Shown here in pieces: positions 8,544 to 60,677 of a stretch of 64,000 nt of DNA. The first letter of the stretch is position 1. Every line of letters begins with the position of its first letter. A program made the position numbers and the translations under genes. Below the pieces are notes generated by a model, which was not told the origin of the DNA, did not search any database, and saw only the letters and a list, made by a program, of their open reading frames with translations. Source of the DNA: an uncultured bacterium (GTDB lineage Bacteria > Bipolaricaulota > Bipolaricaulia > RBG-16-55-9 > DRJF01); the NCBI GenBank assembly GCA_913053845.1, contig CAJXGD010000005.1, positions 2,239-66,238 on the forward strand, given 5' to 3'.

Positions 8544-8685
8544 AGCTTAACCCTCCTTTGCCGGAGTAGCTTAGCGATAACGCCACAGGGCATAGGCGAT
8601 ATAGCTGAGCGCCCCCAAGGTGATAACTAGCGCCAGATAACCGCCGGCTGAGCCGGGAGGATTGAAGATCCACATGAGCGTCAGA

Positions 8686-8880: not shown

Positions 8881-8924
8881 TTTTTAATTCCCCTCCAAGA
8901 GAGACTGGGCCGCTTGCCAGCCGC

Positions 8925-9401
8925 TTAGCTTATTGTAGCTTGACCCTTGCGCCTTTGCAACTCAGCGCTATCGAGCAGCAGCGTGACCGGACCATCGTTG
9001 AGCAGCGATACCTGCATCGTCTGGCCGAAAGCGCCCGTCTGCACCGGTGCCCCCGCGGCGCGCAGCGCCCGGACAAAATGCTCGAAGAGCGGCCGAGCCA
9101 GCTCGGCAGCGGCTGCGCCTGTGAAGTTGGGCCGCCTCCCCCGGCGACAGTTCCCATAGAGCGTAAACTGGGAGACGGCCAGAATCTCACCCCCGCTCCC
9201 CAGCAGCGAGCGATTCAGCTTGCCCGCTTCATCGGCAAAAATTCGCAAATTAACGCACTTATCGGCCAGCAACTCCGCCTGAGCTACGTCGTCCTGCCGG
9301 CCGATGCCGACCAGGATCAGCAGGCCGGGGCCAATCTGGGCGATGGTCTGCTCCGCGACGCGCACGGTCGCCTGGCGCACCCGTTGAATCACCAGTCGCA
9401 T
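8925..9401 (-). CDS. dtd: D-aminoacyl-tRNA deacylase
   Basis: MRLVIQRV…ILVGIG…SQFTLYG…GRRPNF. 158 aa. Dtd family. Confidence 0.9.
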   Translation of the reverse strand: MRLVIQRVRQATVRVAEQTIAQIGPGLLILVGIGRQDDVAQAELLADKCVNLRIFADEAGKLNRSLLGSGGEILAVSQFTLYGNCRRGRRPNFTGAAAAELARPLFEHFVRALRAAGAPVQTGAFGQTMQVSLLNDGPVTLLLDSAELQRRKGQATIS

Positions 9402-11817: not shown

Positions 11818-12082
11818 GCTGTTCGCCAGGTGGACCCAGCCTTATCTCGCCGATGGCCAGATGACCGCGTGCCCCCTCCAGCACCTGGCGAGTCTGAGCC
11901 AAAAAACCCGGCGGCACCAGCAGCAGACAATATTGCCGCCCCCGGTGGAGACGCCAGTCCCGACGGAGCTGAGCAATGCCATCATAACCGGAGATGATCG
12001 CATCCAGCAGATGAATCTCGTCTTCCGGCAACTCCACGTAGAGCTCCAAGGCCCGCTCGGCGGTCCGTGCTGCTAAGGGCAA
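11804..12082 (-). CDS. Hypothetical small protein
   Basis: 92-aa ORF overlapping the ends of its two neighbours by a few nt. No recognisable motif. Confidence 0.3.
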   Translation of the reverse strand: MPLAARTAERALELYVELPEDEIHLLDAIISGYDGIAQLRRDWRLHRGRQYCLLLVPPGFLAQTRQVLEGARGHLAIGEIRLGPPGEQRELV

Positions 12083-17524: not shown

Positions 17525-20428
17525 TCAATTCCGCTTGGCCAGCAGGGAAAGAACGGCGGGGAGAAAGGTCAAGCTGAAGAGGGTGGTGAAGCCGATCCCT
17601 AGCAGAGCCACCTGGCCCAACACCTGCAAGGCGCTCATCTCGGCCAGAGCGAGGCTGCCCAGCCCGATCATGGCCGCCAGGGCGTTGGCCAGGATCGGCA
17701 CGGCGGTGGAGCTGGTCGCCCCCTCCACGTCGCGCTGCCCCAGGTCCTGATGGCGATGGAGCAGATAGACGCAGTTGTCCACACCCAAGCCCAGCAATAG
17801 CGGAGAGATCAGTATGTTGACGAAGTTGAACTGGATGCCCAGCCAGTGCATCGCGGCCAGCATCCAAATATAGCCCAGGATGAGCGGTGCCAAGGCCAGC
17901 AGCATCGCCCCGCGCAGCTTGACCCGGCGGAAGTCCAGCCAGATGATCAGCATGATCAGGGCGATGGCCAGTAGGGTGGAGCGCTGGAAGTCGCTCTCCA
18001 TGTAATCGCGCAGCCGGGCTTGCAACATCGGCGCACCCAGGTAGTCGGGCCAAATGGAGTTGAGTTGGCCGATAAACTGTTTGTAGAGATTGCTATCATA
18101 TATCCAAGCCGGTTGCACGTGGGCATAGATAATCATCGCCCCCTTAGCAGTGAAGAAATAGCGCTGCAACTGCCGCTGCAACTGGGGATTGTGCAGGCGG
18201 CCCTCGACATCTTGCGGGGTGGGGATCGAGCGCAGGATGGCCTGGGCCTCTTGGGCCAAGCGGTCCAACTGGTCGCTCAGCCGGGTGGCTTGCTCGGTGA
18301 GGGCCCGGCCGTTGAGCGCATCCAGCCGAGCGATCAGGTCCAGCACCTGGCTCTGCTGCTGGGCCAGCTTGGCGGCCAAACCCTCTTGGCCATTGATAGC
18401 CGCCTGATCACGGGCATCGCCCAGGTTCGCCTGCAAGCGCTCCCATTGCCGGCGCAGCTCGCTGCGATGGGCCAGATTATCGCGCAGCCATTTGAACTGG
18501 GCCCGCACCGGGGCCAGGGCCGACGCCAGGTCCAGCGACCGCACCTTGGCCAGCTTCCCCTTGATCTCTTCCACCTGACTGGGCAGGGGCATCACGCTGT
18601 AATAATTGATCACCTGATCTATCGCCGGCAGGGCTAAAAGCCGCCGGGATATCTGTTGGATCTGGCTGGGATCGTCCTTGACGAAGAAGACGAAAGCGTT
18701 TTGGGCATCAAATGAGCTACGCTCGAAGGCCCGATTGATCCGGGCACGCGTCTCCACGGTGGGCAGGTTCTTGGGGATCAGCTTGTCGGAGACGAACTCG
18801 AAACCCACCTGCGAGGCGCTAGTTAGCCCCACATAGAGGCTGGACCCCAGCACCAAAATGATCAGCGGCCAGCGCACCCGCAAGATCAGGTGCACCAGTG
18901 GGCGCACATTGAGCAGATAACGCGGAGGTCGACGACCGGGCCCCCGGCGCCCGAAGACCACCTGGGTGGCCATGATCAGCGCCGGCAGGACGAAGAGGGT
19001 CAGCAAGTTGGCTAACAGGATTCCCAGGCCAAGCAGAAGGCCCATCTGTTGGAGACCGGGCGAGCTGGCCAAGAGCAGGCCAAAGAGCACTGAGGAGGTG
19101 GCCAGGGAGGCGATCAGCATCGCGCTGCCCTTTTGCAGCAACGTGTTATGCAACGCCACGGTGAGCTTGTGGCCGGCCTGGCGTTCCTCGAGAAAATGGG
19201 TGATGAACTGAATGCCGTAGTCGATCCCCATCCCCAGCATCAAGGGGGGCAGGAAAGTTGTGAGCAGATTTAGGCTGCCCACGGTAAGCCTAACCAGGGC
19301 CAGGCTGATCAGCAGGCTCATAAAAATAGGCAAAGAAGCTAAAATAGGATAAAAAAGGCGCCCCAAGATGAGGATGAAGAGCAGGGAGATGCCGACAATA
19401 GCAATCAAAGTTGTCTTGTCGGTATCCCGCAGCAGGGCGGCCTGGCTTTCGGCATTGAAGACGTAGGAGCCGGTCAGGCCCACCTGGAAACCCTGTTTCT
19501 CTAGAGCGAGTCGGCGCAGCACCTGCCGCACGGTGCGGGTCACCTTGGTGTTATACGCTTCGGAGTCGGTAGAGGGACGGCGGAAATGGACGTTGACCAA
19601 GAGCGAGCGCCGGTCGCGCGAGAGCAAGAGATCGGGCGAGCTGGGCGGCTCTAGCTGCTGCAATCCCGCCTGAAACTGGCCGGTCAGCCTGAGCAAGGGG
19701 GTTATTCTGGCCTCCCCGCGCGCCAATTCTCCCGGCAGGTGCCCCAGTTGCAGGCCCACCTGCTTATTCAACTTGGCCAGGTCTACCAGGCTCTGGCTGA
19801 GCTGTTTGATGACTTGTTGCAGCTTCTTGGGGGCGATCACCGTCAAGCCGCCGGTTTTGATCGCTTGCTCCAGCCCTTGGTTGAGCTGGGCGTAAATCTG
19901 GTCCAGACGCTGCCCCTGATTCGCTGGTGGCTCCGCCGGGCTTGAGCCGGCCGGCGCTTTGCTCAATGCCTCTAGGCTTTGCTGCAAGTCACTCAGGTTC
20001 TGCTCGGAGAGCGCTTGCAGGTTGAAGGAGAGCGATTGGGGGTTGGGCAAGGCCGGACGATAGCTGGCGGAGGTTACTTCCGGTTGCGCCTGCAAAGCGG
20101 CGATCAGCCGCTCGGCTGTGGTGCGCAAGCGGTCCACCCCCTCCGCCCGACTGGAGGGCGTTTGGGTCAGGCTCAAGAGCACCGTGAGCACATCGGCGCC
20201 CTGCAAGGCGGCCTGGCGCTCGTTGAACTTCTGAATGAGCTTATCACCTGGAGGGAGCAGGTCTTTGAAGTCACTATCCAGCTTCAGGCCGCGCACATAA
20301 TAGAGCGAAAGTAATGCCGCCAAGCTGGCGATGACCAAAATCCACCAGCCCCGGCGTCGGGTAAGCTGATAGATCCATTCTAGCAACCGTTGGCGTATCG
20401 TTTCCGGTTTCAATAGCTTACCTTGCAA
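17525..20428 (-). CDS. MMPL/RND-superfamily exporter
   Basis: 967 aa with two 6-TM bundles, each followed by a large loop. The N-terminus and TM topology resemble HpnN/MMPL transporters. Confidence 0.8.
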   Translation of the reverse strand: MQGKLLKPETIRQRLLEWIYQLTRRRGWWILVIASLAALLSLYYVRGLKLDSDFKDLLPPGDKLIQKFNERQAALQGADVLTVLLSLTQTPSSRAEGVDRLRTTAERLIAALQAQPEVTSASYRPALPNPQSLSFNLQALSEQNLSDLQQSLEALSKAPAGSSPAEPPANQGQRLDQIYAQLNQGLEQAIKTGGLTVIAPKKLQQVIKQLSQSLVDLAKLNKQVGLQLGHLPGELARGEARITPLLRLTGQFQAGLQQLEPPSSPDLLLSRDRRSLLVNVHFRRPSTDSEAYNTKVTRTVRQVLRRLALEKQGFQVGLTGSYVFNAESQAALLRDTDKTTLIAIVGISLLFILILGRLFYPILASLPIFMSLLISLALVRLTVGSLNLLTTFLPPLMLGMGIDYGIQFITHFLEERQAGHKLTVALHNTLLQKGSAMLIASLATSSVLFGLLLASSPGLQQMGLLLGLGILLANLLTLFVLPALIMATQVVFGRRGPGRRPPRYLLNVRPLVHLILRVRWPLIILVLGSSLYVGLTSASQVGFEFVSDKLIPKNLPTVETRARINRAFERSSFDAQNAFVFFVKDDPSQIQQISRRLLALPAIDQVINYYSVMPLPSQVEEIKGKLAKVRSLDLASALAPVRAQFKWLRDNLAHRSELRRQWERLQANLGDARDQAAINGQEGLAAKLAQQQSQVLDLIARLDALNGRALTEQATRLSDQLDRLAQEAQAILRSIPTPQDVEGRLHNPQLQRQLQRYFFTAKGAMIIYAHVQPAWIYDSNLYKQFIGQLNSIWPDYLGAPMLQARLRDYMESDFQRSTLLAIALIMLIIWLDFRRVKLRGAMLLALAPLILGYIWMLAAMHWLGIQFNFVNILISPLLLGLGVDNCVYLLHRHQDLGQRDVEGATSSTAVPILANALAAMIGLGSLALAEMSALQVLGQVALLGIGFTTLFSLTFLPAVLSLLAKRN

Positions 20429-23061: not shown

Positions 23062-25941
23062 TCAAAATGGCGCCCCCAGCGCCAGATAGAAGACCGGAGC
23101 CGGCTGGCCTAGCCCCTGGGCCACGCCGAGGCCGAGCGAGATACTGTTGAAGTAGCCCAGCGTAACATTGAGCAGTAGCTCGGTCCCGAAGCCGATCTTG
23201 ACCTGCTTCAGGCTGAGCCGCTCGCCGGCCAGGCCCGCATCTACGAAGAGCCGGCCATGCAGGCCGCTCAAGAAGAGCGAGTAACGGCTGATACCCCGCT
23301 CGATATCCATCAAGGGGAAGTCATATTGCAGTCCGGCGACCAATGCCAGCTTGCCCGATAGCACATCGGCCTTGAAGCCGCGCAGGGCGAACCGTCCGTA
23401 GGGGCCGCCGATATGAAACCCCTCGCGCTTGACGTCGCTGACATCGCTCCAGGCCCCCACGAACTTGAGCGAGAGGTGCTGGCTGCTGAGCAGCGGCAAG
23501 CGCCAGCTCTCCCGCCAGTCGAGCACCAGCGACCTGTGCCACACGCCGGAACCCGCCACCGTCTCCAGTTTGCCGTCCAGTAAGACGGAGAATGCATTGG
23601 CATACAGATCATGCTGGGTCAGGCGCTTCAGGCTCCAGGAGGCGGTGAACGTATGCCGGGTCTCTGGTAAGGCGAGAGGTGCCATCGCCGAGTCGGCCTG
23701 GCCCAACAGGGACAAGAGGCTAGCCGAGCCGGTCTGCACCTGAGAGATGCGCTGTGAACGCCGATAGCCGATGGTCAGCGTCTGGCTCCCGTCCAGGTGC
23801 AGCGAGAGCGGGAAGCTGGCACGCAACGACTGGCTGTTGCCGTGGCGATCGCCGGTCAGGCTCACGGTGAGCTCCGGGAAGAGTTGCAGGTTAATGTAGG
23901 TCAGATTATAGATCGGCCGAGCTTGCTGAAAATCATAGCCCAGCAGTGTGGTGTAGGCCTGCTGCACGGTGGCATCTTGGCCCTGGATCAGGACACCCGC
24001 CCCGCCAGGCAGGGGCAGCGGCAGCCAGAACTTAGGTGCTAGCGAGAGGGTCGGATCATAGGGCTTAACCGGATATTTGCTCTGGGGATAGCCCGACCAA
24101 ATCGGTATTTTCTTCATTGGAAGCTGGACCGGCCTCCAGGTCTTTGGGTCATAGGGCATCTTGTAGATGTTGTAGCCCACGCTGCTATAACCCGTAAAGG
24201 CCAGCCACTGACCATCGGGTGAGATGCTGGGATGGAAGGCCCCGCTGAGCATATTGGTCACCCGGAAGAAAGCTTTATCTTTAACCCGATAAGCGTAAAT
24301 ATTATAGACGCGGTCATGATCTGAGCTGAAGAGCACGAACTTGCCGTCGCGCGACCAGACCGGATCGGCATCCTGGGCTTTATCTTGAGTCACCGGAGTC
24401 AGGTTGCCCCCGGCCGCGGGCAGCAGATAAATATCTTGATAGCCGCCGCGCTTCCACAGTGCCAAGGCCAAAGTCTTACCGTCCGGAGAGACGGCCAGCG
24501 ATTGGATGATGCCATTGTCATCGGGAAAACGCTTGATGATGCTGATCTGGCCACTGGCCAAGTCGAGCCGCGCCAGGGCGGTGCTGCCATCGTGACTCAC
24601 CGTCTGAGCCAGATAGAGCGAGCGACCGTCGGGGGCGAACTGAGCGTAATAGGCCCGCGCGCCCCAGGTGAGCCGCCGCTCTTTCTTCGTCTGCAGATCA
24701 TAGAGATAGAGGTCGGAGAGCAGCGCGTAAGGCCCATCGAAGTCGAGCTTGGCGTAGACCAGCTTCTTCCCATCGGGCGACCAGGCCGGTAGATTGACGA
24801 AGCCATTGACCAGCTCGTGATCCCGGTCGCCCTGGGGAGTGATCAGCCTGATGTCATCGCGTCCGGAAGCATCCGAGTGATGATAAGCGATCCAGCCCTG
24901 AGCGCTCGCCGAGCCGCTCTGGGCGGCCTCAGGCGACCAGGCCGGCTGGTTACTGATGAACCCCAGCGAGCTGACCCGCAGCGCCGGGGTGAGCCCCTTT
25001 GCAGTGATAGCCCGGATCTGCTTGGTGAAGCGGGCGCGCAGCCACTGCTTAAAATCCTGATAGAGCTTGCTGCGCGAGACGCCCAGCGCCTTTTGCAGCA
25101 CTTGGTCGAAGTCTGCCCCATAGCCGGAGAGAGGCGCGAGCAGATTGAGTGGCTTGCCGGCGTTGATCTGATCGATCTGGGCCAGCTTGTCTTGTCCATA
25201 GCGCTCTTCGATGTAGCGATCGAGCCAGGAGCCATAGTTATAGACCAGCAAGCCGCTCGTCGGCCAGCGGGCGCGCCCATAATATGAAGTCGTCTGATCA
25301 TAAGGTGGCAGGGCGTTATCGAGCACCATCTGGCGCAGCAGCATCTCGGTGCGGGCGCCGTTGAGGCGTGACTGACCCAGATGCTTATATGTCTCATAAA
25401 CGGCCAGCCCCTCGATAAAAGTAATCGGCTTATGTATTTCCGGCAGCACGATGGTGCCCAGCAACCGGCGTAAAGCTTTATTCACCCCACGCACCTGGGA
25501 CAGATCAACCGCATGGACATACTCATGGAAGGTCACCATCTTCCACCAAGAGGCGAGCCGCACATTAAAATTATCTGAGAGACGACCCTGGTAAGCGAAG
25601 ATCATGATCTCGCCAGAGAGCGGATTGGTGGAGCCATTGGAGAGATCGAGTGGATCTACCAGCACGATCTCGGTCTTCTGCGGCGCCTGACCGAACTCTT
25701 TTTTCAGGGTCCGATAAAAACCCTCGACCTGAGAGGCGATCTCCTGGGCCGGGCCGCCCATCCCCTGCTGATAAGTAATGCGGAAATGCGGGGTCTCGAT
25801 CGTCTGCCATCTCAAGCTGGGATCTATGCGTAGCTGGCCGTAACCTACCACGCTCCCCACCGTTAATATCAAGATAAGTGCGCTCAAGATCGCCGCTCGC
25901 CGGGCTAGCTGACACGCTTGCATCTGGTGATGCCTCCTCAT
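23062..25941 (-). CDS. Outer-membrane-targeted protein: HExxH peptidase-like domain + TolB-like PD40 beta-propeller + C-terminal beta-barrel (cassette 1)
   Basis: 959 aa with a signal peptide. HEYVH at residues 139-143 with a downstream GLAVYETY. Repeated PD40-type blades (…SPDGK…LYL… ×5-6). The C-terminal roughly 300 aa are beta-rich and end …GLGQPAPVFYLALGAPF (aromatic C-terminus as in OMPs). Confidence 0.7.
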   Translation of the reverse strand: MRRHHQMQACQLARRAAILSALILILTVGSVVGYGQLRIDPSLRWQTIETPHFRITYQQGMGGPAQEIASQVEGFYRTLKKEFGQAPQKTEIVLVDPLDLSNGSTNPLSGEIMIFAYQGRLSDNFNVRLASWWKMVTFHEYVHAVDLSQVRGVNKALRRLLGTIVLPEIHKPITFIEGLAVYETYKHLGQSRLNGARTEMLLRQMVLDNALPPYDQTTSYYGRARWPTSGLLVYNYGSWLDRYIEERYGQDKLAQIDQINAGKPLNLLAPLSGYGADFDQVLQKALGVSRSKLYQDFKQWLRARFTKQIRAITAKGLTPALRVSSLGFISNQPAWSPEAAQSGSASAQGWIAYHHSDASGRDDIRLITPQGDRDHELVNGFVNLPAWSPDGKKLVYAKLDFDGPYALLSDLYLYDLQTKKERRLTWGARAYYAQFAPDGRSLYLAQTVSHDGSTALARLDLASGQISIIKRFPDDNGIIQSLAVSPDGKTLALALWKRGGYQDIYLLPAAGGNLTPVTQDKAQDADPVWSRDGKFVLFSSDHDRVYNIYAYRVKDKAFFRVTNMLSGAFHPSISPDGQWLAFTGYSSVGYNIYKMPYDPKTWRPVQLPMKKIPIWSGYPQSKYPVKPYDPTLSLAPKFWLPLPLPGGAGVLIQGQDATVQQAYTTLLGYDFQQARPIYNLTYINLQLFPELTVSLTGDRHGNSQSLRASFPLSLHLDGSQTLTIGYRRSQRISQVQTGSASLLSLLGQADSAMAPLALPETRHTFTASWSLKRLTQHDLYANAFSVLLDGKLETVAGSGVWHRSLVLDWRESWRLPLLSSQHLSLKFVGAWSDVSDVKREGFHIGGPYGRFALRGFKADVLSGKLALVAGLQYDFPLMDIERGISRYSLFLSGLHGRLFVDAGLAGERLSLKQVKIGFGTELLLNVTLGYFNSISLGLGVAQGLGQPAPVFYLALGAPF

Positions 25942-25954
25942 GTTGAACTTTGGA

Positions 25955-27001
25955 TTAAAAATTCATCAGGAACTGGAACTGTCCGTCCTGGGTGAAGACG
26001 AAGTCGGCACGCAACTGGAACTGGCTGACCGAGACTATCGCTGCCAGACCCCAGCTAAAGAGCGTACCGGTCTCCTGAGGTTTGGCGGCTTTTGCTTGGC
26101 TCCCCTGAGCCACCGGGGTTGCCTCCGGTCGGTCATGGGTGGCCGAGCCGGCCTGAAAGGTCAGCGCGCCGGAGAGCTTGAGGGGTACACCTTGGCCCAA
26201 AGCGGGCAAGAGCGCCGACGGCAGCAGGTTGGACGGGAGAGAAATCTTGGTCTGGTAAAGAATAAAGCGCCGTTCCAGTTCGAAGCTCCAGAAGTCATGG
26301 CCGCGCAGCGCTTTAGCGATGCCTCGCACGCTGGTGCTGAACTCAAAGCCCTTCAGTCCGGCTAGATTACTCAGATGGCCCCAGCGGCCGCTCAGCCGCA
26401 GCTCACCTATATTCAAAGTCAGGTTCTGGCTGCTGGCCTGGAAGAGCTGCTCGCTCCGCCGGCCGTCATGGCCCAGCAGTGCGCCTATGATCATGTTGGA
26501 GCTGCTGCTGAGATAGATCTGGTAGGGCAAGCTGTAGCTGCTGCCTCGGTCCAGGCTGAGATAGGCCACTTGAGGACCGGGGCCCTGCTCGTCCCAGAAG
26601 CGCCCTAGGAAGGCCCGGGCCTTATCGCCGTTGCGGCTGAGCACCAGTGCCAGGCCGCGCTCACCGAACTGGCCCAAAATCGGGGAGGAGGGCCAATCGA
26701 GCCAGGAGAGGCGCAGGCCGCCTTGGCCCTTGATCAGGGGCAGCTGGGCCAGGTTCAAACCCAGACCGGCCTCATATCTGAACGCCTTGCTCTTGAGCCC
26801 GTAGGCCGCGCTGCCGAAGGGCTCCCAATTGCCCAGGTGACAATCGGCCTTGGCGCCCACCAAGCTGCCATCTACTGCGTTTTGCGAGAAGACCGGTTGA
26901 GGTCGGCAGGGGAATGACTGCGCCAGAGCGGCCGGCACCGGAGTCAGCAGGAGCACCAGTAGTGAGCACCAGACCGTCAAAGCCAATTGAGATCGTCTCA
27001 T
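25955..27001 (-). CDS. Putative outer-membrane beta-barrel protein (cassette 1 partner)
   Basis: 348 aa with a signal peptide (…AALAQS). Alternating amphipathic beta-strands. C-terminus FQFLMNF. Stop is 14 nt before the cassette-1 large gene. RBS AAGGAGG. Confidence 0.55.
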   Translation of the reverse strand: MRRSQLALTVWCSLLVLLLTPVPAALAQSFPCRPQPVFSQNAVDGSLVGAKADCHLGNWEPFGSAAYGLKSKAFRYEAGLGLNLAQLPLIKGQGGLRLSWLDWPSSPILGQFGERGLALVLSRNGDKARAFLGRFWDEQGPGPQVAYLSLDRGSSYSLPYQIYLSSSSNMIIGALLGHDGRRSEQLFQASSQNLTLNIGELRLSGRWGHLSNLAGLKGFEFSTSVRGIAKALRGHDFWSFELERRFILYQTKISLPSNLLPSALLPALGQGVPLKLSGALTFQAGSATHDRPEATPVAQGSQAKAAKPQETGTLFSWGLAAIVSVSQFQLRADFVFTQDGQFQFLMNF

Positions 27002-27136
27002 TAGAGATCAGAACCTCCTTTAACCCTTGCATTATAGACCCAGAGAAAATGGCCGGTCAAACCGATTGACTCTCGCCGGCTCAATTTGCTATGATAATCC
27101 GATAGCGGGCGACGTGACCCAAAGGGGGGAAGCGCG

Positions 27137-27766
27137 ATGTCACGGAGCACCCTGGGTGCTCAGGAGATCAAAGCCATCTACGACCGGCTAGCAACCCAAT
27201 ATGATCGCCGCGAGCGGCTGCTGGAATGGCTGCTCTTGCGGCGCCACCGCCGCAAGTTGCTCAGCCGGGCCCGCGGCGAAGTGCTGGAGGTGGCGATCGG
27301 CACCGGCCTCAATCTGCCCTTTTATCCCCCCGAGTGCAGCATCAGCGGCACCGATCTCTCCCCGGTCATGCTCCAACTCGCTCAGCGGCGGGCCGAGCGC
27401 TTGAGGCGTGTTGTCCGACTGCAAGAGATGGACACCCAGCAACTGGCCTTCGCCGATGAGAGCTTCGATACGGTAGTCAGCACCTTGGCGCTCTGCACCG
27501 TGATTGATCCTCTGCGGGCGCTGGGTGAGATGGCCCGGGTCACTCGCCCCCAGGGGCAGCTCTTGCTCTTCGAGCATGGGCGCTGTCGCTACGGCACCAT
27601 CGCCCGCTGGCAGGATCGTCTCACCCCCCACCAGGTGCTGCGCTTCGGCTGTCACCTCAATCGCAACGTTCTGGCGCTGGTCCAGGCGGCCGACCTGCAA
27701 ATCATCTGGCGGGAGAGCCATCTGGGAGGCATGCTGCGGCTAATTCAAGCTATACCCTTCCGCTGA
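27137..27766 (+). CDS. Class I SAM-dependent methyltransferase
   Basis: Motif I VLEVAIGTGLN, then DTQQLAFADESFDTVV, then LLLFEHG. 209 aa. Confidence 0.8.
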   Translation: MSRSTLGAQEIKAIYDRLATQYDRRERLLEWLLLRRHRRKLLSRARGEVLEVAIGTGLNLPFYPPECSISGTDLSPVMLQLAQRRAERLRRVVRLQEMDTQQLAFADESFDTVVSTLALCTVIDPLRALGEMARVTRPQGQLLLFEHGRCRYGTIARWQDRLTPHQVLRFGCHLNRNVLALVQAADLQIIWRESHLGGMLRLIQAIPFR

Positions 27767-27775
27767 ATCGCTCGG

Positions 27776-30559
27776 CTAAAAAGAGCCGGACCAGCGCAGA
27801 TAGAGCTGCGGGCCGGGCTGCCCCAGCCCCTGAGCCAGCCCCAAGCGCAAGCTGAGCGGCAGAGAGCGCTCTAAAATGAATCCCAGGCGCAGTTCGCCCC
27901 CCCAACTGACCCTCAGCCGGCTTAGATCGATCCGGTCGGCGGCGCTGCCGACGGTCAAGAAAAGCGCACCGGAGAGTTTGTCCAGGAACAGTGGCCAGAG
28001 ACCCAGACCACGCTCGATGGCCAGCAGCGGGAAGCTGTATTCCAGCTTGCCCCAGAGCAACTGCTTTCCCCTCAGCAACCCCGAAGGAAAGCCGGGCAAG
28101 GCATAAGGACCGTCGGTGCCACCCAGTTGAAAAGCCCCGGGCAGGTCGCTCCAGCCGGCCACCAAGTGTGTAATCAGCGCCTGCCGGGGCATGCCAGGCA
28201 GGCGCACCTGCTCCTGCCAATCCAACAGAACCCGGCGTGCCGCCGTTTGCACCCCGGAGCCGGTCGCCCGGGACCAGCCCCATTGGCCGGAGAGCGAGAT
28301 ATTCACCGAGTCGCGCCACAGGCCCAGCCCCTGCTGGGCCGAGTATTTCCAAGAGCCGAAGAGTTGCTGCTGGCTCTCTCCTGGTGAAGTGGAGCGGCGA
28401 TAGCCCAACTTCACCGTCTGGCGCCTGGTCAGCTCCACGACTAGGGGCCAGCTCAGCGCCAGCGAGGTATGGCTGCTGAGCAGATCGCCGCCGGCCTGCA
28501 AAGCCAACGTGGCTCCCAGTTGGGAGTTGAGGTAGCTCAGCTCGAAGAAGGGCGATGCCCGCCGCCAGGCGTAGCCGAGCTGCAAGCGGAAGCGTTGCTC
28601 ATCCAGCGCATCTTGGCCCCAGGTGAAGAGGCCCAGCCGACCGGCCGCCGGATCGAGCCAGGGCAGCCAGAGCTTGGGCAATAGCGAGGGGATCGGATTG
28701 TAGGGCCGGATAGGCCAGGATAGCTGGGGATAGCCGGGCCAAGGGGAGATATGCTCATAGTGCTGCTCCACCGGCGTCCAAGATTGAGGATCATAGGGCA
28801 TGAGGCGCAGATCATAGCCGGAGGCCGAATAAGCCACGAAGGCGATGTTCACCCCGTCGGGGGAGACGGCCGGAGCGAAGGCCCCGCCAAAGGAGCGGGT
28901 CACCCGGAAGAGCCGGGCGTCGGCAATCCGATAGGCATAGAGATCATAGCCGCCAGACCGATCGGAGCTGAAGAGCACGTAGCGCCCGTCGGCCGAAAAA
29001 CTGGGGTCCAGATCGGTGGCCCGGTCGCGGGTCGCCGACCAGAGCAGGCGGCCGTCCCTGCTGAGCAGATAGATATCTTGATAGCCACCCCACTGCCAGA
29101 GGGAGAGGGCGATCGTCTGACCATCGGGCGAGATGGCCAGGGACTCGATGGTAGCCTGGCCACCCAGTTCGAGCAGGATCTGGCGACTATGGCTCACCAG
29201 ATCATAGACGATCAGTGAGCTGCCCGGCCCGGCTTGCCCGGGCAGATAGCTATCATCGTCGCGGGCGATCAGCAGATGCCGTCCGTCGGGGAAAGGAGCC
29301 ACGGCGTAGGCCCGCTCGCCGGTGGTCAGTCGTCTCTCCTGCCGGGTGACCAGATCATAGCTATAGAGATCATAGAAAAGATAGTAGCGCTTAAAGATAC
29401 CCAGCTTGGGATAAATCAGGGTAGGGTGAGCCTGGTGCGGCAACCAGGCGGGCGCCGCGAACCTGCCGGATAGCAGGGCTATATCATGCTGGCCTGCCGA
29501 GTCCACCAGGCGCAGGCCGGCAGTCCGTGCCGGGTCGCTGTGCCGATAGACCAGCGTTTTCCCATCCGGTGACCAGGCCGGCGCCCCGCTCCAGTGACCC
29601 AGATGGGTCAGCGCCCGACTGGGCGTCTCGCCGCCCGCTGCTTGCAGCGCTCGCCGAAAGGCCTTCATCTGGGCTTCACTCCAGTCCTGAAAGCCTCGAT
29701 AGAGCTTTTCTGGCTTGACGCCGGTCACACCTCTCAGAGCCTGGCCGAAGTCGCTCAAGAAGCCCAGGGAGAGCAGGGCGGGCAGGTTCTCGGCTTGGGC
29801 CGTGTCCAGGCGGGCCAAGCTGTCCCGCCCGTAGCGTTCGCCCAGATAGCGCAGCAGCCAAGGGCCCAGATCTTGGGCGAGGATGTCGGACGGGGGCCAC
29901 TCCTGCCGGCGATAATATGTCCCCAGTTGGGCCAGCGTCGGCCAGCGGCCCGATTGGGTCAGCAGGCGCAGGATCATCGCCGTGCGCGGATCATCGGCGC
30001 GCGAGTGGCCAGATTTCAGAAAAACCCCATAGTCGGGGATGCCCTCGCGCCAGACGGTGGGTTTGAAGGCGTTGGGCGCTACGATCGAGCCGAAGACGGC
30101 CCTAAGATAGCGGGCGAAGCCCTGAACGCCACTTAGATCAACGATGTGGCCGTACTCCAGGGTGATCAGCCGCTCCGGCCAAGCGGAGAAGCGGGAGCCC
30201 GTCCGGCGGCTCGCGTCCCAGGCGGCCAGGTAGATTACGATGGTGTTGCCAGGCAGGATGCTAGCGTAGCCGGCGCTAAAATCGCTGGCATCGGCCAGCA
30301 CGATATTGGTCCTGCCCGGCGGCACATAGGCCAGCTCAGCGGTCCAGAATTTATAAGCCCTCTCGGCGATCTGAGCCGCCTCGCGCGCCGGGCCGGCCAG
30401 GCCGGTGTGATAGCTGACCCAGAAGTGCGGCGTCTCCAGCGTCTGCCAGGAGAGCTGGGGATCGAAGGGCAGCGGCTGCGCCTGAGAGGCCAGGGCGATG
30501 AGCAGCAGGCCGACCAATGCCAAGCCCATCCCTCGGAGCAGCTGCTTGTAAGAGCGCAT
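27776..30559 (-). CDS. Paralog of the HExxH-PD40-barrel protein with a degenerate peptidase motif (cassette 2)
   Basis: Start placed at ATG 30559 (MRSYKQLLRGMGLALVGLLLIALASQAQP), preceded by a GGAGGAGG RBS. The longer ORF reaching 30850 is Arg/Gly-rich read-through. About 35 % identity to cassette 1 over the N-terminal domain. Same PD40 repeats and barrel end …YLRWSGSF. The HExxH position reads LEYGH. Confidence 0.7.
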   Translation of the reverse strand: MRSYKQLLRGMGLALVGLLLIALASQAQPLPFDPQLSWQTLETPHFWVSYHTGLAGPAREAAQIAERAYKFWTAELAYVPPGRTNIVLADASDFSAGYASILPGNTIVIYLAAWDASRRTGSRFSAWPERLITLEYGHIVDLSGVQGFARYLRAVFGSIVAPNAFKPTVWREGIPDYGVFLKSGHSRADDPRTAMILRLLTQSGRWPTLAQLGTYYRRQEWPPSDILAQDLGPWLLRYLGERYGRDSLARLDTAQAENLPALLSLGFLSDFGQALRGVTGVKPEKLYRGFQDWSEAQMKAFRRALQAAGGETPSRALTHLGHWSGAPAWSPDGKTLVYRHSDPARTAGLRLVDSAGQHDIALLSGRFAAPAWLPHQAHPTLIYPKLGIFKRYYLFYDLYSYDLVTRQERRLTTGERAYAVAPFPDGRHLLIARDDDSYLPGQAGPGSSLIVYDLVSHSRQILLELGGQATIESLAISPDGQTIALSLWQWGGYQDIYLLSRDGRLLWSATRDRATDLDPSFSADGRYVLFSSDRSGGYDLYAYRIADARLFRVTRSFGGAFAPAVSPDGVNIAFVAYSASGYDLRLMPYDPQSWTPVEQHYEHISPWPGYPQLSWPIRPYNPIPSLLPKLWLPWLDPAAGRLGLFTWGQDALDEQRFRLQLGYAWRRASPFFELSYLNSQLGATLALQAGGDLLSSHTSLALSWPLVVELTRRQTVKLGYRRSTSPGESQQQLFGSWKYSAQQGLGLWRDSVNISLSGQWGWSRATGSGVQTAARRVLLDWQEQVRLPGMPRQALITHLVAGWSDLPGAFQLGGTDGPYALPGFPSGLLRGKQLLWGKLEYSFPLLAIERGLGLWPLFLDKLSGALFLTVGSAADRIDLSRLRVSWGGELRLGFILERSLPLSLRLGLAQGLGQPGPQLYLRWSGSF

Positions 30560-30588
30560 CAAAAACCTCCTCCCCCTGCAAGATATTG

Positions 30589-31623
30589 CTAGAAATTTAA
30601 CAGTGCACCGCTCAGATGCAACCGCGGCCGGCCCGCGGCGTTGAAGGCCGCGTCCAGCCGCAGGTCCAGATCGGGAAAGAGCAGCGCGACCCCCCAGCCA
30701 AAGAGCACCCCGCCCTGCGCGACGCCGTCCAGCCACACCTCTCCACCCTCGAAGAAGAGCGCCCCCTGCGTGCGCAACAGTACCGGCACCCGCCCCAAGG
30801 GCAACCCCAACAGCCGCGAGAGATCTATCGCGGCAAAGTGAATCGTCCAAAGATCAAAGCGCCGCTCCAGCGAGGCCACCAGGATGCGATCGCCCTGCAA
30901 GGTGGCCGGATAACTGCGCAGGCTAAAGCGGAAACGCAGGTCGGCCAAGCCGGCCGGGTTGGCCAATCGGCCCAGTTGCAGCCGGACGGTAGTGTGGCCC
31001 AGCTCAAGCTGGGCTGAGCCCAACAGCGTGCGGAAGTACTCCGCCGGCGGAGCCGCAAGCCGCCACCCCAGCAGTGCCTCCCCCTGGAGCCGCAACCTCG
31101 CACCCAGCGGCAGTGTCCATTGAAACTGTCTGTTAAGCTGCAGATAACCTACGGCAGGAGCCTGGGCCTCGCGGGGGGTCGGCCAGAGCGTGCCGTAGAA
31201 GCCGTTCAAGGAAACCCCTTGCCACTCCAGGCCCAGGTGCAGGCCTCGTTCACCTTCGCGTCCCAACACCAGGCTGCCTGGCCAATCGCGGTACCCCAAT
31301 GAGAGCAAAGAGGCGATGCTCAAGCTATAGCGATAGTAGATCGCCCGACTGCCGAAGCCATAGATGGCACCCAGGCCGGGCTCCCAGTTGAGGTCACCCA
31401 GGACCACGCTGAGGCGCAACTCGCAGCCGAGCAGCAGTCCATCGCGGCTGGTCTGCGAGATCAGGGGGCAGCGCCAATGGGGGGTGGCTTTGCGCGGCGC
31501 GCTCTGCACCGCGGGCGCATTTTGGGCGACCAAAGTGGGCGACCAGCCCCAGAGCAATGCCAGGAGCGCCAGGCCGACTATCCAGCCCTTCTTACCTCCA
31601 CAAACTCCCCCCGCTGCAAACAA
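30589..31623 (-). CDS. Putative outer-membrane beta-barrel protein (cassette 2 partner, paralog of 25955-27001)
   Basis: 344 aa with a signal peptide and a C-terminus LSGALLNF. Shares blocks with the cassette-1 OMP (NWEPG, LERRF). Its stop lies 29 nt upstream of the ATG at 30559. Confidence 0.55.
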   Translation of the reverse strand: MFAAGGVCGGKKGWIVGLALLALLWGWSPTLVAQNAPAVQSAPRKATPHWRCPLISQTSRDGLLLGCELRLSVVLGDLNWEPGLGAIYGFGSRAIYYRYSLSIASLLSLGYRDWPGSLVLGREGERGLHLGLEWQGVSLNGFYGTLWPTPREAQAPAVGYLQLNRQFQWTLPLGARLRLQGEALLGWRLAAPPAEYFRTLLGSAQLELGHTTVRLQLGRLANPAGLADLRFRFSLRSYPATLQGDRILVASLERRFDLWTIHFAAIDLSRLLGLPLGRVPVLLRTQGALFFEGGEVWLDGVAQGGVLFGWGVALLFPDLDLRLDAAFNAAGRPRLHLSGALLNF

Positions 31624-31701
31624 TCGCGTTCCTCCTTACGAGCAGGTTCTTATTCTAGGGAACAGGCTCCGGGGGGGCAAGCGGCTCGCGGTTGGCCGGC
31701 G

Positions 31702-32511
31702 TTAGGATTTGCCGAGTTGGTCGGGCAGGAAGAGCTGGTCGGGCAGCTCTTTGATCTCAACCTGGAGCACCGTAAGCTGGGTGACCGAGCCCTGATACAA
31801 GAGATTTTCGATCTCTTGCCGGCGCAGATACTGGTCATCGCCCTGCCTGGCGTACTCCTGATAGAGCACCCGGTCTAACGGCTGGCCGGAGAGGGCGAAG
31901 AGCTCAGCTTGAATAGGCTGAAAACTATTGGGCTTGACCCAGAGGGTGACCTGCTGGAAGGCCACGGAGGGATCGGTGGCGATCAGGCTGAGGGCCAGGG
32001 CCGGTTGGTCATTGAGCGAGGTTTCCTTCTTGGCCTTGATTACATAATTTCCGGCGAAGCGGATTCCGGCCGTCTCGGCCACACTGGAATCACCGAAGAC
32101 GGTGGTCGAGCCGGCGGAGACCTTGAGCGGTTGGCCAGGCAGCAGGTTGGGGCCCCAGAAGAAGCTGCAAGATTTATCGCCCTGGCACAGCTTTTTGTTC
32201 TGCACGGTGAGAAAAATCTGGCCCTGCATACTGGCCGGCTTGAGGAACTCGATGCGGGTGCGAAAGCCGTCACCACCATCGCCAGGGAATTTCTTGAAGA
32301 GGGTGCGCACGGTGGCCTGTTGAGGGCCGCTGGGCCGCTGGGCGGTGATCTCGACCGTCATAGCAAAAGAATCTGCTTCTAGGGTGCGCGCCCGGTCGGC
32401 GGCCTGGAGTATCTGCTCATCGGAGACGCCTTCGGACAGTGACCAGGCTCCGAATGGCCCGAGGAGCACCAGCAGGGACAGAATAAAAAAAACACGCTTG
32501 GCCAGTTTCAT
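31702..32511 (-). CDS. LolA-like outer-membrane lipoprotein-sorting/carrier family protein
   Basis: 269 aa with a signal peptide (…GAWS-LSEG). Size and beta-rich composition fit the LolA-like fold. The start overlaps the ABC ATPase stop. Confidence 0.55.
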   Translation of the reverse strand: MKLAKRVFFILSLLVLLGPFGAWSLSEGVSDEQILQAADRARTLEADSFAMTVEITAQRPSGPQQATVRTLFKKFPGDGGDGFRTRIEFLKPASMQGQIFLTVQNKKLCQGDKSCSFFWGPNLLPGQPLKVSAGSTTVFGDSSVAETAGIRFAGNYVIKAKKETSLNDQPALALSLIATDPSVAFQQVTLWVKPNSFQPIQAELFALSGQPLDRVLYQEYARQGDDQYLRRQEIENLLYQGSVTQLTVLQVEIKELPDQLFLPDQLGKS

Positions 32512-33230
32512 TAGGCCTCCTCTGCAGCCAGATACTCCTGAGCCGGGGGGGAAGTTTCACCCGGCTGCTGCAAGCGGCCGTCGAGAATCTTCACCGCCCG
32601 CTCGGCATAGGCGCTGATGGCCGGATCGTGGGTCACCAGGACCACGGCCACCTGATGCTCCCGATTGAGGCGCTGCATGATGGCCATCACCTTCTGGCCC
32701 GTCTCCGAATCCAGGTTGCCGGTGGGCTCATCGGCCAAGACCAGCCGGGGCCGGGCCACCAGGGCGCGGGCCAAGGCCACCCGCTGCTTCTCTCCGCCGG
32801 AGAGCTCATCGGGGCGGCGCCCGGCTAGCCGGCCCAATCCGACCTCTTCCAGGAGCCCCATCACCCGGCTGCGGCGCTCCTTGCGAGGGATGCGCTGCAA
32901 GAGCAAGGGATATTCCACGTTCTCGTAGGCCGAGAGCACCGGGATCAAGTTGAAAGCCTGGAAGACCAGGCCGATCATATCCCGCCGCAGCTCAGCCAGT
33001 CGAGCTGAGGAAAGGTTGTTCACCCCGTGTCCCTCGATCAGCACCTCGCCTGAGGTTGGCTCGTCTATGCAGGCGATCAAATTGAGAAAGGTCGTCTTGC
33101 CTGAGCCGGAAGGACCGTTGAGGGCCACGAAATCGCCCTGTTCCAACTGAAAGTCTATCCCGCGCAAGGCGTGGACCATCTCTTTGCCGGCCCGATAATC
33201 TTTGGTGAGCGCCTTGGTCTCTAAGAGCAT
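32511..33230 (-). CDS. ABC transporter ATP-binding protein, LolD/MacB/FtsE type
   Basis: Walker [10 protein letters not shown]. Signature [15 protein letters not shown]. Walker [13 protein letters not shown]. Start placed at the Met of [12 protein letters not shown] (about 33230). The ORF upstream of it has no SD sequence. Confidence 0.8.
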
Positions 33231-33700
33231 CTTCGTCTCTTTATATGCTCTGATCATGGGGCTGTCAACCGACGGGCTTGAAGCCCAACTGTTCCAGCAG
33301 AGCTTCGGCCTGCGGTTATCAACCGTCCTGAGCTGTGAGCACGATATCTCTATGGGCATGGAGAGTATACCTTACGGCAAACCGACTTATGTTGCTCACG
33401 CGTATCCCTCGCCGCGAGAGGTCTGGACTAACTCCGCATAGTCTATCGGCCCACGCGGAAGGTAGTCTGTCACCTAGCAAGGTTTCCGCCTTCTCGCCTC
33501 CAGGTGTTTGATATGCGCATAGTAGCGCTGCTGATTGGCATTATGATCCAGTATAGCGGCCGCCCGGCCGGCGATGCCAATTCTGAGCCTAGGTGGGAGA
33601 GGAAGGCTTGACGATCCCTAGCGTCTTATCGGGGCACGACCGTCCGAAGTTGAAAGAGAAAAGCCCGCTTCTATTACGGGTTGTTCGCTCGCGATCCGGC

Positions 33701-33775: not shown

Positions 33776-33852
33776 CGGGACGTGGCGCAGCCTGGTAGCG
33801 CACTGGTCTGGGGGACCAGGGGTCACCGGTTCAAATCCGGTCGTCCCGACCA
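33776..33852 (+). tRNA. tRNA-Pro (anticodon GGG)
   Basis: CGGGACGTGGCGCAGCCTGGTAGCGCACTGGTCTGGGGGACCAGGGGTCACCGGTTCAAATCCGGTCGTCCCGACCA. 7-bp acceptor stem, anticodon loop CTGGGGG, CCA encoded. Confidence 0.85.
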
Positions 33853-56920: not shown

Positions 56921-56938
56921 ACGGGAGGGAGTCACAAA

Positions 56939-59073: not shown

Positions 59074-59080
59074 TCGCATC

Positions 59081-60661: not shown

Positions 60662-60677
60662 TCGGAGAGGAGGAATA

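What the first reader, a model, noticed from the sequence alone, without database searches (positions are those of the whole stretch)
23062..31623. Two ancient tandem paralogous cassettes: OMP beta-barrel + (HExxH domain, PD40 propeller, C-terminal barrel) protein
Cassette 1 is 27001-23062 and cassette 2 is 31623-27776. Each encodes a roughly 345-aa signal-peptide protein with OMP-like strand periodicity and a C-terminal Phe, followed 14-29 nt later by a 930-960-aa protein. That larger protein has an N-terminal zincin-like domain, a TolB-like PD40 beta-propeller, and a roughly 300-aa beta-rich C-terminus ending in F. The two copies are only about 35 % identical, so the duplication is old and both copies have been kept. 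A SAM methyltransferase on the opposite strand separates them. This architecture puts a protease-like head and a propeller on an outer-membrane anchor. I do not recognise it as a characterised system.
Basis: partly seen in the sequence, partly recalled or inferred. Interest (0 to 1): 0.7.

Follow-up and report, generated by a model that had tools for sequence, protein, structure and literature searches.

The report
Paired Omp85 barrels with built-in protease
Two old tandem copies of a gene pair in a Candidatus Fraserbacteria genome each encode a bare Omp85-type outer-membrane barrel and a second Omp85 barrel fused to a zinc-protease-like domain and a TolB-like propeller. The large protein belongs to a subfamily catalogued in 2014 but never studied experimentally, and its conserved pairing with a bare barrel was not found described in the papers searched.

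Summary
Two cassettes lie on the minus strand: A1 25955-27001 with B1 23062-25941, and A2 30589-31623 with B2 27776-30562. They are true paralogues (B 39 % identity, A 31 %).

The large protein has four parts: a signal peptide, an MA-clan zincin domain (HExxH plus a downstream Glu), a six-bladed TolB-like propeller, and a 16-strand Omp85 barrel without POTRA. The B1 model has pLDDT 88.6 and pTM 0.89. This is the 'WD40-like Omp85' subfamily of Heinz & Lithgow (2014). That work already listed BamA, TolB and M1-aminopeptidase hits, but no experiments exist.

A lies directly upstream of B in about 25 of 47 Fraserbacteria/Bipolaricaulota loci. It is absent in Meiothermus and Nitrospirota. B2 here has lost the first zinc-binding His and both Omp85 lid-lock residues.

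Most likely function (inferred): a periplasm-facing, outer-membrane-anchored metallopeptidase that works with a partner barrel in envelope-protein processing. This is a new variant of a known kind, of moderate interest.

The parts
30589..31623 (-). A2: 344-aa signal-peptide protein, paralogue of A1. It is a bare (no N-terminal domain) Omp85-like barrel.
   Evidence: ORF. 31 % identity to A1, E = 3e-25. Scores 1.7e-96 against the A-family HMM. A 60 %-identical orthologue lies directly upstream of the B2 orthologue in L050.
31652..31680 (-). Weak sigma-70-like promoter match just upstream of A2.
   Evidence: TTGCCC-17-TAGAAT, 9 of 12 matches. This is a consensus match only.
27776..30562 (-). B2: 928 aa with signal peptide, degenerate zincin domain, TolB-like propeller and Omp85 barrel (type-2 'HEYGH/EGIP' paralogue clade).
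   Evidence: Motif table. Orthologues P0182 (92 %) and P0183/P0184 (64-66 %).
30158..30160 (-). Codon CTG for Leu135 of B2, at the position of the first His of HExxH.
   Evidence: All other barrel-bearing homologues examined have His here, including the 92 %-identical P0182. CTG differs from CAY at two bases.
28094..28096 (-). Pro823 of B2, replacing the conserved Arg of the Omp85 loop-6 (V/L)RG(F/Y) motif.
   Evidence: The change is shared with P0182 but not with P0183 or P0184.
27953..27955 (-). Thr870 of B2, replacing the Asp/Glu of the beta-13 FxDxG motif (the lid-lock partner of the loop-6 Arg).
   Evidence: The change is shared with P0182.
27137..27766 (+). SAM-dependent methyltransferase (UbiE/PmtA-like), convergent with B2 and divergent from A1. 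It is a conserved neighbour of B2 orthologues.
   Evidence: Pfam Methyltransf_11, E = 4.9e-20. A convergent UbiE-like methyltransferase follows the B2 orthologue in L050 and L051.
27031..27060 (-). Strong sigma-70-like promoter match for cassette 1.
   Evidence: TTGACC-18-TATAAT, 11 of 12 matches. It is followed by an AAAGGAGG ribosome-binding site before the A1 ATG.
25955..27001 (-). A1: 348-aa signal-peptide protein predicted to be a 16-strand Omp85-like barrel with no periplasmic domain. It has a loop-6 'VRGI' motif and 'FQAG' on beta-13.
23062..25941 (-). B1: 959 aa (probably 953 aa from Met7 at 25923), member of the WD40-like Omp85 subfamily.
   Evidence: AF2 model: pLDDT 88.6, pTM 0.89.
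24997..25809 (-). B1 residues 45-315: zincin (MA-clan) domain. It has a mixed beta-sheet, an active-site helix and a Glu helix, followed by an alpha-helical subdomain.
   Evidence: Secondary structure. Peptidase_MA_2 is hit by 6 of 17 homologous N-terminal domains, best E = 1.4e-6. Phyre2 M1-aminopeptidase hits are reported for this subfamily in PMC4104836 Table S3.
25513..25527 (-). HEYVH (residues 139-143), the zinc-binding and catalytic motif of B1.
   Evidence: Across 30 diverse homologues, H139 and H143 are at least 90 % conserved and E140 is invariant.
25411..25413 (-). Glu177 in IEGLAVYE, the candidate third zinc ligand (gluzincin-type).
   Evidence: E177 and G178 are invariant in 30 homologues. 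The residue lies on helix 177-188. Its role as a ligand is inferred.
24082..24984 (-). B1 residues about 320-620: six-bladed TolB-like PD40 beta-propeller.
23065..24030 (-). B1 residues 638-959: 16-strand Omp85 barrel with no POTRA domain.
23374..23385 (-). LRGF (residues 853-856), the loop-6 lid-lock motif of B1.
   Evidence: R854 and G855 are conserved. The motif is defined in PMC11358297.
23233..23247 (-). FVDAG (residues 899-903), the beta-13 FxDxG motif of B1.

Best explanation
SHOWN. Each cassette encodes two Omp85-superfamily outer-membrane barrels.
- Protein A is a bare 16-strand Omp85-like barrel with only a signal peptide.
- Protein B has a signal peptide, an MA-clan (gluzincin-like) zinc-peptidase domain, a six-bladed TolB-like propeller and a 16-strand Omp85 barrel without POTRA. 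This is the 'WD40-like Omp85' subfamily.
- The A-to-B gene order is conserved, and the two genes diverge together across Candidatus Fraserbacteria and Bipolaricaulota. These are sister phyla of Thermotogae with a toga-like outer membrane.
- The whole cassette was duplicated long ago.

INFERRED.
- The N-terminus of an Omp85 barrel sits in the periplasm. The long loops of B fall at the L4 and L6 positions expected for the outside face. The peptidase and propeller therefore hang from the inner face of the outer membrane, as shown for the enzyme domain of PlpD.
- The propeller acts as a docking or gating platform for polypeptide substrates that are cut by the zincin site.
- The barrel anchors the enzyme at the membrane and pairs with the co-expressed A barrel. 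Omp85 barrels are known to pair, as in PlpD homodimers and Sam50 dimers.
- The most likely job is processing or quality-control degradation of envelope proteins (outer-membrane proteins or toga proteins) at their site of insertion. This would be functionally analogous to BepA working on BAM.
- In this genome B2 has lost a zinc ligand and the lid-lock pair, so cassette 2 probably acts as a non-catalytic or altered variant.

For: An active enzyme is likely. HExxH and a downstream E-G are invariant or nearly so across 30 homologues from several phyla. All barrel-bearing paralogues in 47 loci keep the first two motif residues, His-Glu, except window B2; one of them, the second B copy in L015, has lost the second His (HEYTY).

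Pairing. A lies directly upstream of B in about 25 of 47 loci and in L050/L051. A and B pairwise distances correlate at r = 0.95 over 21 pairs. A promoter-like site and a ribosome-binding site precede A1, and only 13-31 nt separate A1 from B1.

Topology precedent. The PlpD enzyme domain is periplasmic and its barrels dimerise (PMC11116518).

Neighbourhood. The region is rich in envelope-biogenesis genes: a LolA-like protein, an ABC ATPase, a PgsA-like transferase, an HAE3/MMPL RND exporter and a 1220-aa SurA-like PPIase-TPR protein.
Against: No experiment exists for any member of either family. Catalytic activity, substrate, topology and A-B contact are all inferred.

The zincin fold of the N-terminal domain was not confirmed by a structure search, because the propeller and barrel dominated both searches. 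A profile search of PDB sequences found nothing significant.

B1 itself does not reach Pfam significance for Omp85 or Peptidase_MA_2. The assignment rests on homologues and the model.

Many B paralogues and all B homologues outside the Fraserbacteria/Bipolaricaulota clade lack an adjacent A gene. A is therefore not generally required for B.

The A/B distance correlation is expected for any two linked, vertically inherited genes.

Flanking genes other than A-B (and the methyltransferase next to B2) are not conserved. Context therefore gives little functional guidance.
Confidence: 0.45

Rival explanations
1. A and B are themselves a BAM/TAM-like insertase. The two Omp85 barrels insert or assemble outer-membrane (toga) proteins. 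The propeller (BamB-like) and zincin-like domain replace POTRA as the periplasmic substrate-receiving platform, and proteolysis is secondary or absent.
For: Both proteins have Omp85 barrels, and B1 keeps intact lid-lock motifs. Heinz & Lithgow proposed that WD40-Omp85 resembles a BamA-BamB fusion. Sam50 functions without its POTRA domain (cited). The neighbourhood contains a SurA-like chaperone and lipid or lipoprotein trafficking genes.
Against: The near-universal conservation of HExxH and the downstream Glu argues that catalysis matters. Thermotogae, the sister phylum, have a canonical BamA (PMC10160955), so a standard insertase is probably present too. This was not checked for this genome. 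The A family is very narrow, with 40 representatives, which is odd for an essential insertase.
Confidence: 0.2
2. B is a cell-surface nutritional protease. The zincin-propeller 'passenger' is exported through its own barrel or the partner A barrel (type V or two-partner-like secretion) and digests external proteins for these peptide-fermenting bacteria.
For: The arrangement of enzyme plus Omp85 barrel resembles type Vd / PlpD. Propeller-gated peptidases (S9, tricorn) are typical peptide-scavenging enzymes, and B matches the Tricorn_N, Tricorn_2nd and DPPIV_N profiles. Peptidase genes lie near the pair in some loci: an S9 peptidase in L015 and an M28 peptidase in L001.
Against: The N-termini of Omp85 barrels are periplasmic. 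The PlpD passenger is now shown to stay in the periplasm. A folded unit of about 600 residues (zincin plus propeller) is unlikely to cross a 16-strand barrel without an energy source. B has no POTRA or TPS-type domain. The peptidase neighbours are not conserved.
Confidence: 0.12
3. B is a Tol-Pal-like envelope tether or remodelling factor. The TolB-like propeller binds a Pal/OmpA-like or peptidoglycan-associated partner, and the zincin trims peptidoglycan-linked or tethering proteins during division.
For: TolB is the closest structural and sequence relative of the propeller. In Allomeiothermus silvanus, B lies 27 nt downstream of an Amidase_3 cell-wall amidase gene.
Against: B scores far below the TolB equivalog cut-off (114.7 against 343 bits). 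It has no TolB_N domain. The amidase link appears in a single lineage. No Pal-like gene is nearby in the window.
Confidence: 0.08

Closest known systems
'WD40-like' Omp85 subfamily (Heinz & Lithgow 2014, PMC4104836)
   Same: B1 and B2 have the same three modules that the paper's Table S3 lists for this cluster: a barrel matching BamA/TamA, a propeller matching TolB (2w8b, 2ivz), and an 'aminopeptidase' region matching M1 enzymes (1z5h, 4kxd, 3qnf). Distant homologues of B carry PF01103, PF07676 and PF13485.
   Different: The 2014 set came from cultured Bacteroidota/Rhodothermota, Myxococcota, Chlorobiota and similar groups, and no partner gene was reported. Here the protein comes from Fraserbacteria, is preceded by a dedicated bare barrel gene, and is duplicated in tandem. 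B1 itself is too divergent to reach Pfam significance for Omp85.
noNterm Omp85 proteins (e.g. Leptospira LIC12252/12254/12258, PMC11358297)
   Same: A1 and A2 are signal peptide plus a 16-strand Omp85-type barrel with no periplasmic domain, and they carry an Arg-Gly motif in loop 6.
   Different: A matches no Pfam family, neither PF01103 nor any DUF. The beta-13 Asp is Gln in A1 and Glu in A2. The family has only about 40 representatives in 1.84 billion proteins. It is encoded immediately upstream of a WD40-like Omp85.
PlpD / patatin-like Omp85 (type Vd), PMC11116518
   Same: An enzyme domain is fused N-terminally to an Omp85 barrel. For PlpD the enzyme domain is periplasmic and the barrels form dimers. 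This is the best working analogy for topology and barrel pairing.
   Different: PlpD has a patatin lipase and a POTRA domain and forms homodimers. B has a zincin and a propeller, has no POTRA, and has a separately encoded bare barrel as its candidate partner.
BAM-BepA quality control (M48 metalloprotease docking on BamA)
   Same: A zinc metalloprotease is positioned at an Omp85 barrel on the periplasmic face (from papers listed; established knowledge).
   Different: BepA is a separate soluble M48/TPR protein. Here an MA-clan zincin of another family is covalently fused to the barrel. There is no sequence relationship.
TolB (Tol-Pal system)
   Different: B has no TolB N-terminal domain. Its NCBIfam TolB score is 114.7 bits against a cut-off of 343. 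The propeller is embedded between a peptidase and a barrel.

Membership tests
Omp85 superfamily (protein B) | 16-stranded C-terminal beta-barrel of the BamA/Sam50/TamA type | tested here: met
Omp85 superfamily (protein B) | Loop-6 (V/L/M)RG(F/Y/W) motif and beta-13 FxDxG lid-lock motif | tested here: met
   B1 has LRGF (853-856) and FVDAG (899-903), and both are conserved in homologues. B2 does NOT meet this feature: it has LPGF and FLTVG.
Omp85 superfamily (protein B) | Sequence match to Pfam PF01103 | tested here: inconclusive
   B1 and B2 have no PF01103 hit at E <= 0.1. Among aligned homologues, 14 of 30 hit it, with best E = 4.3e-16.
Omp85 superfamily (canonical BamA/TamA/TpsB) | One or more periplasmic POTRA domains before the barrel | tested here: not met
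   Only about 30 residues (605-637) separate the propeller from the barrel in the model. There is no beta-alpha-alpha-beta-beta unit and no POTRA Pfam hit.
WD40-like Omp85 subfamily (Heinz & Lithgow 2014) | PD40/TolB-like propeller N-terminal to an Omp85 barrel | tested here: met
WD40-like Omp85 subfamily (Heinz & Lithgow 2014) | N-terminal region with aminopeptidase (M1-like zincin) similarity | tested here: met
   HExxH plus a downstream Glu are conserved. Peptidase_MA_2 is hit by 6 of 17 homologous N-terminal domains, best E = 1.4e-6, with weaker BSP, DUF1570, Zincin_1 and M61 hits. The fold itself was not confirmed by structure search.
M1 aminopeptidase family | HExxH-X18-E spacing and a GxMEN exopeptidase motif | tested here: not met
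   The conserved Glu (E177) lies 33 residues after H143. The strand about 35 residues upstream reads D-x-S-N-G-x-x-x-P, not GxMEN. There is no Peptidase_M1 Pfam hit. B is an MA-clan zincin but not an M1 member.
noNterm Omp85 (protein A) | Signal peptide followed directly by a 16-strand Omp85-type barrel | tested here: met
noNterm Omp85 (protein A) | Lid-lock motifs (RG in L6; FxDxG on beta-13) and a PF01103 or DUF5982 sequence match | tested here: inconclusive
   L6 reads VRGI in A1 and LRSY in A2. Beta-13 reads FQAG in A1 and FFEGG in A2, so the Asp is replaced. There is no Pfam or NCBIfam hit at all. hhalign to the B barrel gives only 79 % probability, E = 1.6e-5.
TolB (Tol-Pal) | TolB N-terminal domain plus propeller scoring above the equivalog cut-off | tested here: not met
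   TIGR02800 scores 114.7 bits (B1) and 93.9 bits (B2) against a cut-off of 343.15, and only the propeller part of the profile matches.
OmpM / Omp-beta tethering porins of Thermotogae-like envelopes (protein A) | Porin-type barrel adjacent to or fused with an SLH/coiled-coil Omp-alpha | tested here: not met

The most novel reading that the evidence does not exclude
A and B form an obligate hetero-dimer of two Omp85 barrels, a bacterial counterpart of the Sam50 dimer. One barrel is bare, and the other carries its own propeller dock and zinc protease. In the toga-type outer membranes of Fraserbacteria and Bipolaricaulota, this would be a self-contained machine for assembling and proofreading outer-membrane proteins. 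The degenerate second cassette would serve as a non-catalytic regulatory or placeholder version.
Probability: 0.12. Interest if true: 0.75.

Novelty: new variant of a known kind. Interest (0 to 1): 0.45.

Why it matters
Two of the Omp85 subfamilies defined in 2014, 'WD40-like' and 'noNterm', still have no assigned function. This locus shows the two types encoded as a conserved, co-diverging gene pair in deep-branching phyla related to Thermotogae, whose outer membrane is atypical. That gives a concrete, testable hypothesis that the two barrels work together and that a conserved zinc-peptidase site is part of the job. If confirmed, it would add a new mode of protease-coupled Omp85 function and inform how outer membranes are built and policed outside Proteobacteria. 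If the protease is simply a periplasmic housekeeping enzyme with a membrane anchor, the finding is a useful annotation but not a surprise.

Tried and rejected
1. Sequence searches of the A protein against Pfam, NCBIfam and PDB found nothing. Only structure prediction revealed the fold.
2. A profile of the B N-terminal domain against PDB sequences gave no significant hit. The best peptidase hit was the M1 enzyme 3cia at E = 0.64.
4. The genome scan with the 30-sequence alignment failed because no stretch was conserved enough. It worked with the 14 closer sequences.
6. B as true TolB: rejected, because it scores below the cut-off.
7. The 337-aa ORF between the two B genes in L015 as a second A: rejected. 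It is an alpha/beta hydrolase.
8. LolA-like protein and ABC ATPase as conserved partners: rejected. The LolA-like protein matched in only one of the 47 loci (L015); ABC-ATPase matches occur in six loci with no consistent position, and neither is upstream of the B2 orthologues in L050/L051.
9. Literature searches for PD40 plus Omp85 and for Peptidase_MA_2 plus Omp85 returned no papers.
10. Chance ORFs or an artefact: rejected. There are hundreds of full-length homologues and confident models.

Full report
OBSERVATION

- A1 at 25955..27001 (348 aa)
- B1 at 23062..25941 (959 aa)
- A2 at 30589..31623 (344 aa)
- B2 at 27776..30562 (928 aa, counted from MRSYKQ)

B1 most likely starts at Met7 (25923). 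An AGGAGG lies 9 nt upstream of that ATG, and the public gene call P0001 is 953 aa. B1 and B2 align over their full length at 39 % identity. A1 and A2 align at 31 % identity with E = 3e-25. All four proteins have signal-peptide-like N-termini and end in Phe.

A class-I SAM methyltransferase on the plus strand (27137..27766) separates the cassettes. A near-consensus promoter match (TTGACC-18-TATAAT, 27060..27031) and an AAAGGAGG ribosome-binding site precede A1. A weaker promoter match precedes A2.

The exact protein sequences occur in GenBank records of a Candidatus Fraserbacteria MAG: HED03334.1 for B1 and HED04256.1 for the LolA-like neighbour.

THE LARGE PROTEIN (B)

Pfam and NCBIfam recognise only the PD40/TolB-type propeller in B1 and B2. 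Homologues are abundant, with 1612 scored hits. They are full-length and occur in Fraserbacteria, Bipolaricaulota/Acetothermia, Meiothermus, Saganbacteria, Nitrospirota, Atribacterota, KSB3 and Myxococcota. Many of the more distant ones carry precomputed PF01103 (Omp85) and some carry PF13485 (Peptidase_MA_2).

I scanned 30 aligned members individually. Fourteen hit Omp85 (best E = 4.3e-16) and three hit Peptidase_MA_2. Of 17 isolated N-terminal domains, six hit Peptidase_MA_2 (best E = 1.4e-6). There were weaker hits to other MA-clan families: BSP, DUF1570, Zincin_1 and M61.

In the 30-sequence alignment, H139 and H143 are at least 90 % conserved, E140 is invariant, and so is E177-G178 in 'IEGLAVYE'. 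This is a gluzincin-like HExxH...E arrangement.

AlphaFold2 with this alignment gives a confident full-length model (pLDDT 88.6, pTM 0.89):
- Residues 45-315 form a beta-sheet, an active-site helix (132-147), a Glu helix (177-188) and a helical subdomain.
- Residues about 320-620 form six four-stranded blades.
- Residues 638-956 form 16 beta-strands.
- The long loops lie between strands 7 and 8 and between strands 11 and 12.
- Only about 30 residues separate the propeller from the barrel, so there is no POTRA domain.

This architecture is not new to the literature. Heinz & Lithgow (2014, PMC4104836) defined a 'WD40-like' Omp85 cluster. Their Table S2 lists PF01103 plus PF07676 architectures. 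Their Table S3 lists Phyre2 hits to BamA/TamA, to TolB (2w8b, 2ivz), and a 'best aminopeptidase hit' to M1 enzymes (1z5h, 4kxd, 3qnf). Searches of the open-access paper library found only one further paper that names the subfamily and none that studies it.

THE SMALL PROTEIN (A)

A1 has no hit in Pfam, NCBIfam or PDB sequences. A word-indexed search found 13 relatives. An exhaustive profile search of 1.84 billion representatives found only 40 with E <= 1e-3, so the family is very narrow.

The loop between strands 11 and 12 carries a conserved V/L-R-G (VRGI in A1). Strand 13 carries F-x-Q/E-x-G in place of FxDxG. A profile-profile comparison links the A family to the B barrel over just this region (E = 1.6e-5, 79 % probability). 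A is therefore a very divergent bare ('noNterm') Omp85-like barrel.

CONSERVATION OF THE PAIR

A scan of one genome per species returned 47 loci, mostly Fraserbacteria and Bipolaricaulota/Acetothermia MAGs. HMM searches of their six-frame ORFs show an A gene immediately upstream of B, on the same strand, in about 25 loci. The same holds in L050 and L051, which hold B2 orthologues.

Over 21 complete pairs, the A and B pairwise distances correlate at r = 0.95, and A evolves faster (mean distance 0.62 against 0.50). This fits inheritance as a unit, although linkage alone would also produce such a correlation.

Motifs separate two paralogue clades:
- Type 1 reads 'HELVH...IEGLAVYE' and includes B1.
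- Type 2 reads 'HEYGH...EGIPxY' and includes B2.

A2 and B2 orthologues at 60-66 % identity occur together in L050 and L051. They are followed by the same convergent UbiE-like methyltransferase. This shows that the cassette was duplicated as a unit and that the methyltransferase travels with cassette 2. The synteny A-B-PgsA-like-RluD-NusA-RND is conserved around type 1 in the Fraserbacteria loci L001 and L002 and in the Acetothermia/Bipolaricaulota loci L006 and L008.

The pairing is not universal. Several type-2 loci (L021, L023, L031), Meiothermus and Nitrospirota have B without A.

DEGENERATION OF B2

In this window B2 reads LEYGH, LPGF and FLTVG where other members read HExxH, LRGF and FxD/ExG. 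The 92 %-identical orthologue P0182 keeps HEYGH but shares LPGF and FLTAG. The orthologues at 64-66 % identity keep all three motifs.

The lid-lock Arg and its acidic partner were therefore lost together in the recent lineage. The zinc-ligand His was lost only here. The codon is CTG, two substitutions away from CAY. B2 is otherwise intact, so it is probably a non-catalytic or altered-function copy. The single-genome His change should be checked against the source reads.

HOW IT PROBABLY WORKS (INFERENCE)

Strand 1 of an Omp85 barrel starts in the periplasm. In B the long loops fall at L4 and L6, the positions that face outward in BamA. The zincin and propeller should therefore hang below the outer membrane.

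PlpD sets a precedent. Its enzyme domain, once thought to be secreted, is periplasmic, and its barrels dimerise (PMC11116518). The high pTM suggests that the three domains pack as one unit. PD40 propellers gate substrate access in S9 and tricorn peptidases (established knowledge), and B matches those profiles.

My best reading (confidence about 0.45) is an outer-membrane-anchored, periplasm-facing zinc peptidase. Its propeller docks or filters polypeptides. It works beside a co-expressed bare Omp85 barrel and processes or removes envelope proteins at the membrane. Functionally this resembles BepA acting at BAM.

There are three rivals:
- A POTRA-less insertase pair (0.2).
- A surface nutritional protease exported in a type V-like manner (0.12).
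- A Tol-Pal-like tether or remodelling factor (0.08). This is suggested only by the TolB similarity and by an Amidase_3 gene upstream of the homologue in Allomeiothermus silvanus.

Fraserbacteria and Bipolaricaulota are sister phyla of Thermotogae and have a toga-type outer membrane (bioRxiv 10.1101/2021.05.31.446380; PMC10160955). That is the setting in which the pair acts.

VERDICT

The large protein is a new member of a catalogued but unstudied Omp85 subfamily. The small protein is a highly divergent bare Omp85 barrel that sequence-based annotation cannot recognise.

Three things appear to be new:
- The conserved pairing of the two barrel types.
- The duplication of the pair as a unit.
- The degenerate second copy.

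No function has been demonstrated. I rate this a new variant of a known kind, with interest 0.45.

Noticed in passing
window 12073..15735 (-): A 1220-aa protein combines a SurA-like N-terminal region, two or three PPIC-type PPIase domains, a long TPR array and a C-terminal DUF3105. This is an unusually large periplasmic-chaperone-like architecture, and it lies 7 kb from the Omp85 cassettes.
   Followed up: no
window 31702..33359 (-): A LolA_like 'outer membrane lipoprotein-sorting protein' (PF17131, E = 1.4e-20) and an ABC ATPase lie directly upstream of A2 on the same strand. No permease gene is adjacent, and a tRNA-Pro at 33776..33852 bounds the block. The LolA-like link recurs only in L015, and neither gene is upstream of the B2 orthologues in L050/L051.
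   Followed up: partly
window 17525..20428 (-): An HAE3/MMPL-type RND exporter is distantly similar to HpnN and BstA lipid transporters. Its synteny with NusA, RluD, a PgsA-like transferase and the A1-B1 pair is conserved in L001, L002, L006 and L008.
   Followed up: partly
L004 9420..11447; L005 11078..13114; L010 9253..11376; L012 11055..13076; L027 11064..13130; also L039-L041 and L044: Bipolaricaulota also encode a barrel-less B-like paralogue of about 680 aa (zincin-like domain plus propeller only). It often lies about 2.3 kb downstream of the A-B pair. In it, HExxH is replaced by ALYAQ or SEYAQ, so the zincin is dead. No copy is present in this window.
   Followed up: partly
L048 4624..8646 (Allomeiothermus silvanus CP002042.1): The B homologue of a cultured organism (881 aa, P0066) lies 27 nt downstream of an Amidase_3 cell-wall amidase gene and has no A-type gene nearby. 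This is a possible experimental entry point and a hint of a cell-wall link.
   Followed up: no
L050 13561..13923; L051 11611..11967: A small Zincin_1 (PF06262) protein of 118-120 aa is encoded just beyond the methyltransferase that follows the B2 orthologues. It is not present at that position in the window.
   Followed up: no
L015 1836..3902 and 7916..8929; L001 1666..3099: Other peptidase or hydrolase genes flank the A-B pair in some relatives: an S9 peptidase with a PD40 propeller, an alpha/beta hydrolase between two B genes, and an M28 peptidase. They are not conserved across loci.
   Followed up: partly
window 40..2463 (+): An 807-aa ORF has no Pfam match at E <= 1e-5.
   Followed up: no
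window 56001..64000: There is a sustained strongly negative AT skew (-0.19 to -0.25) with GC of 64-66 %. This is more extreme than elsewhere in the window. The cause was not examined.
   Followed up: no
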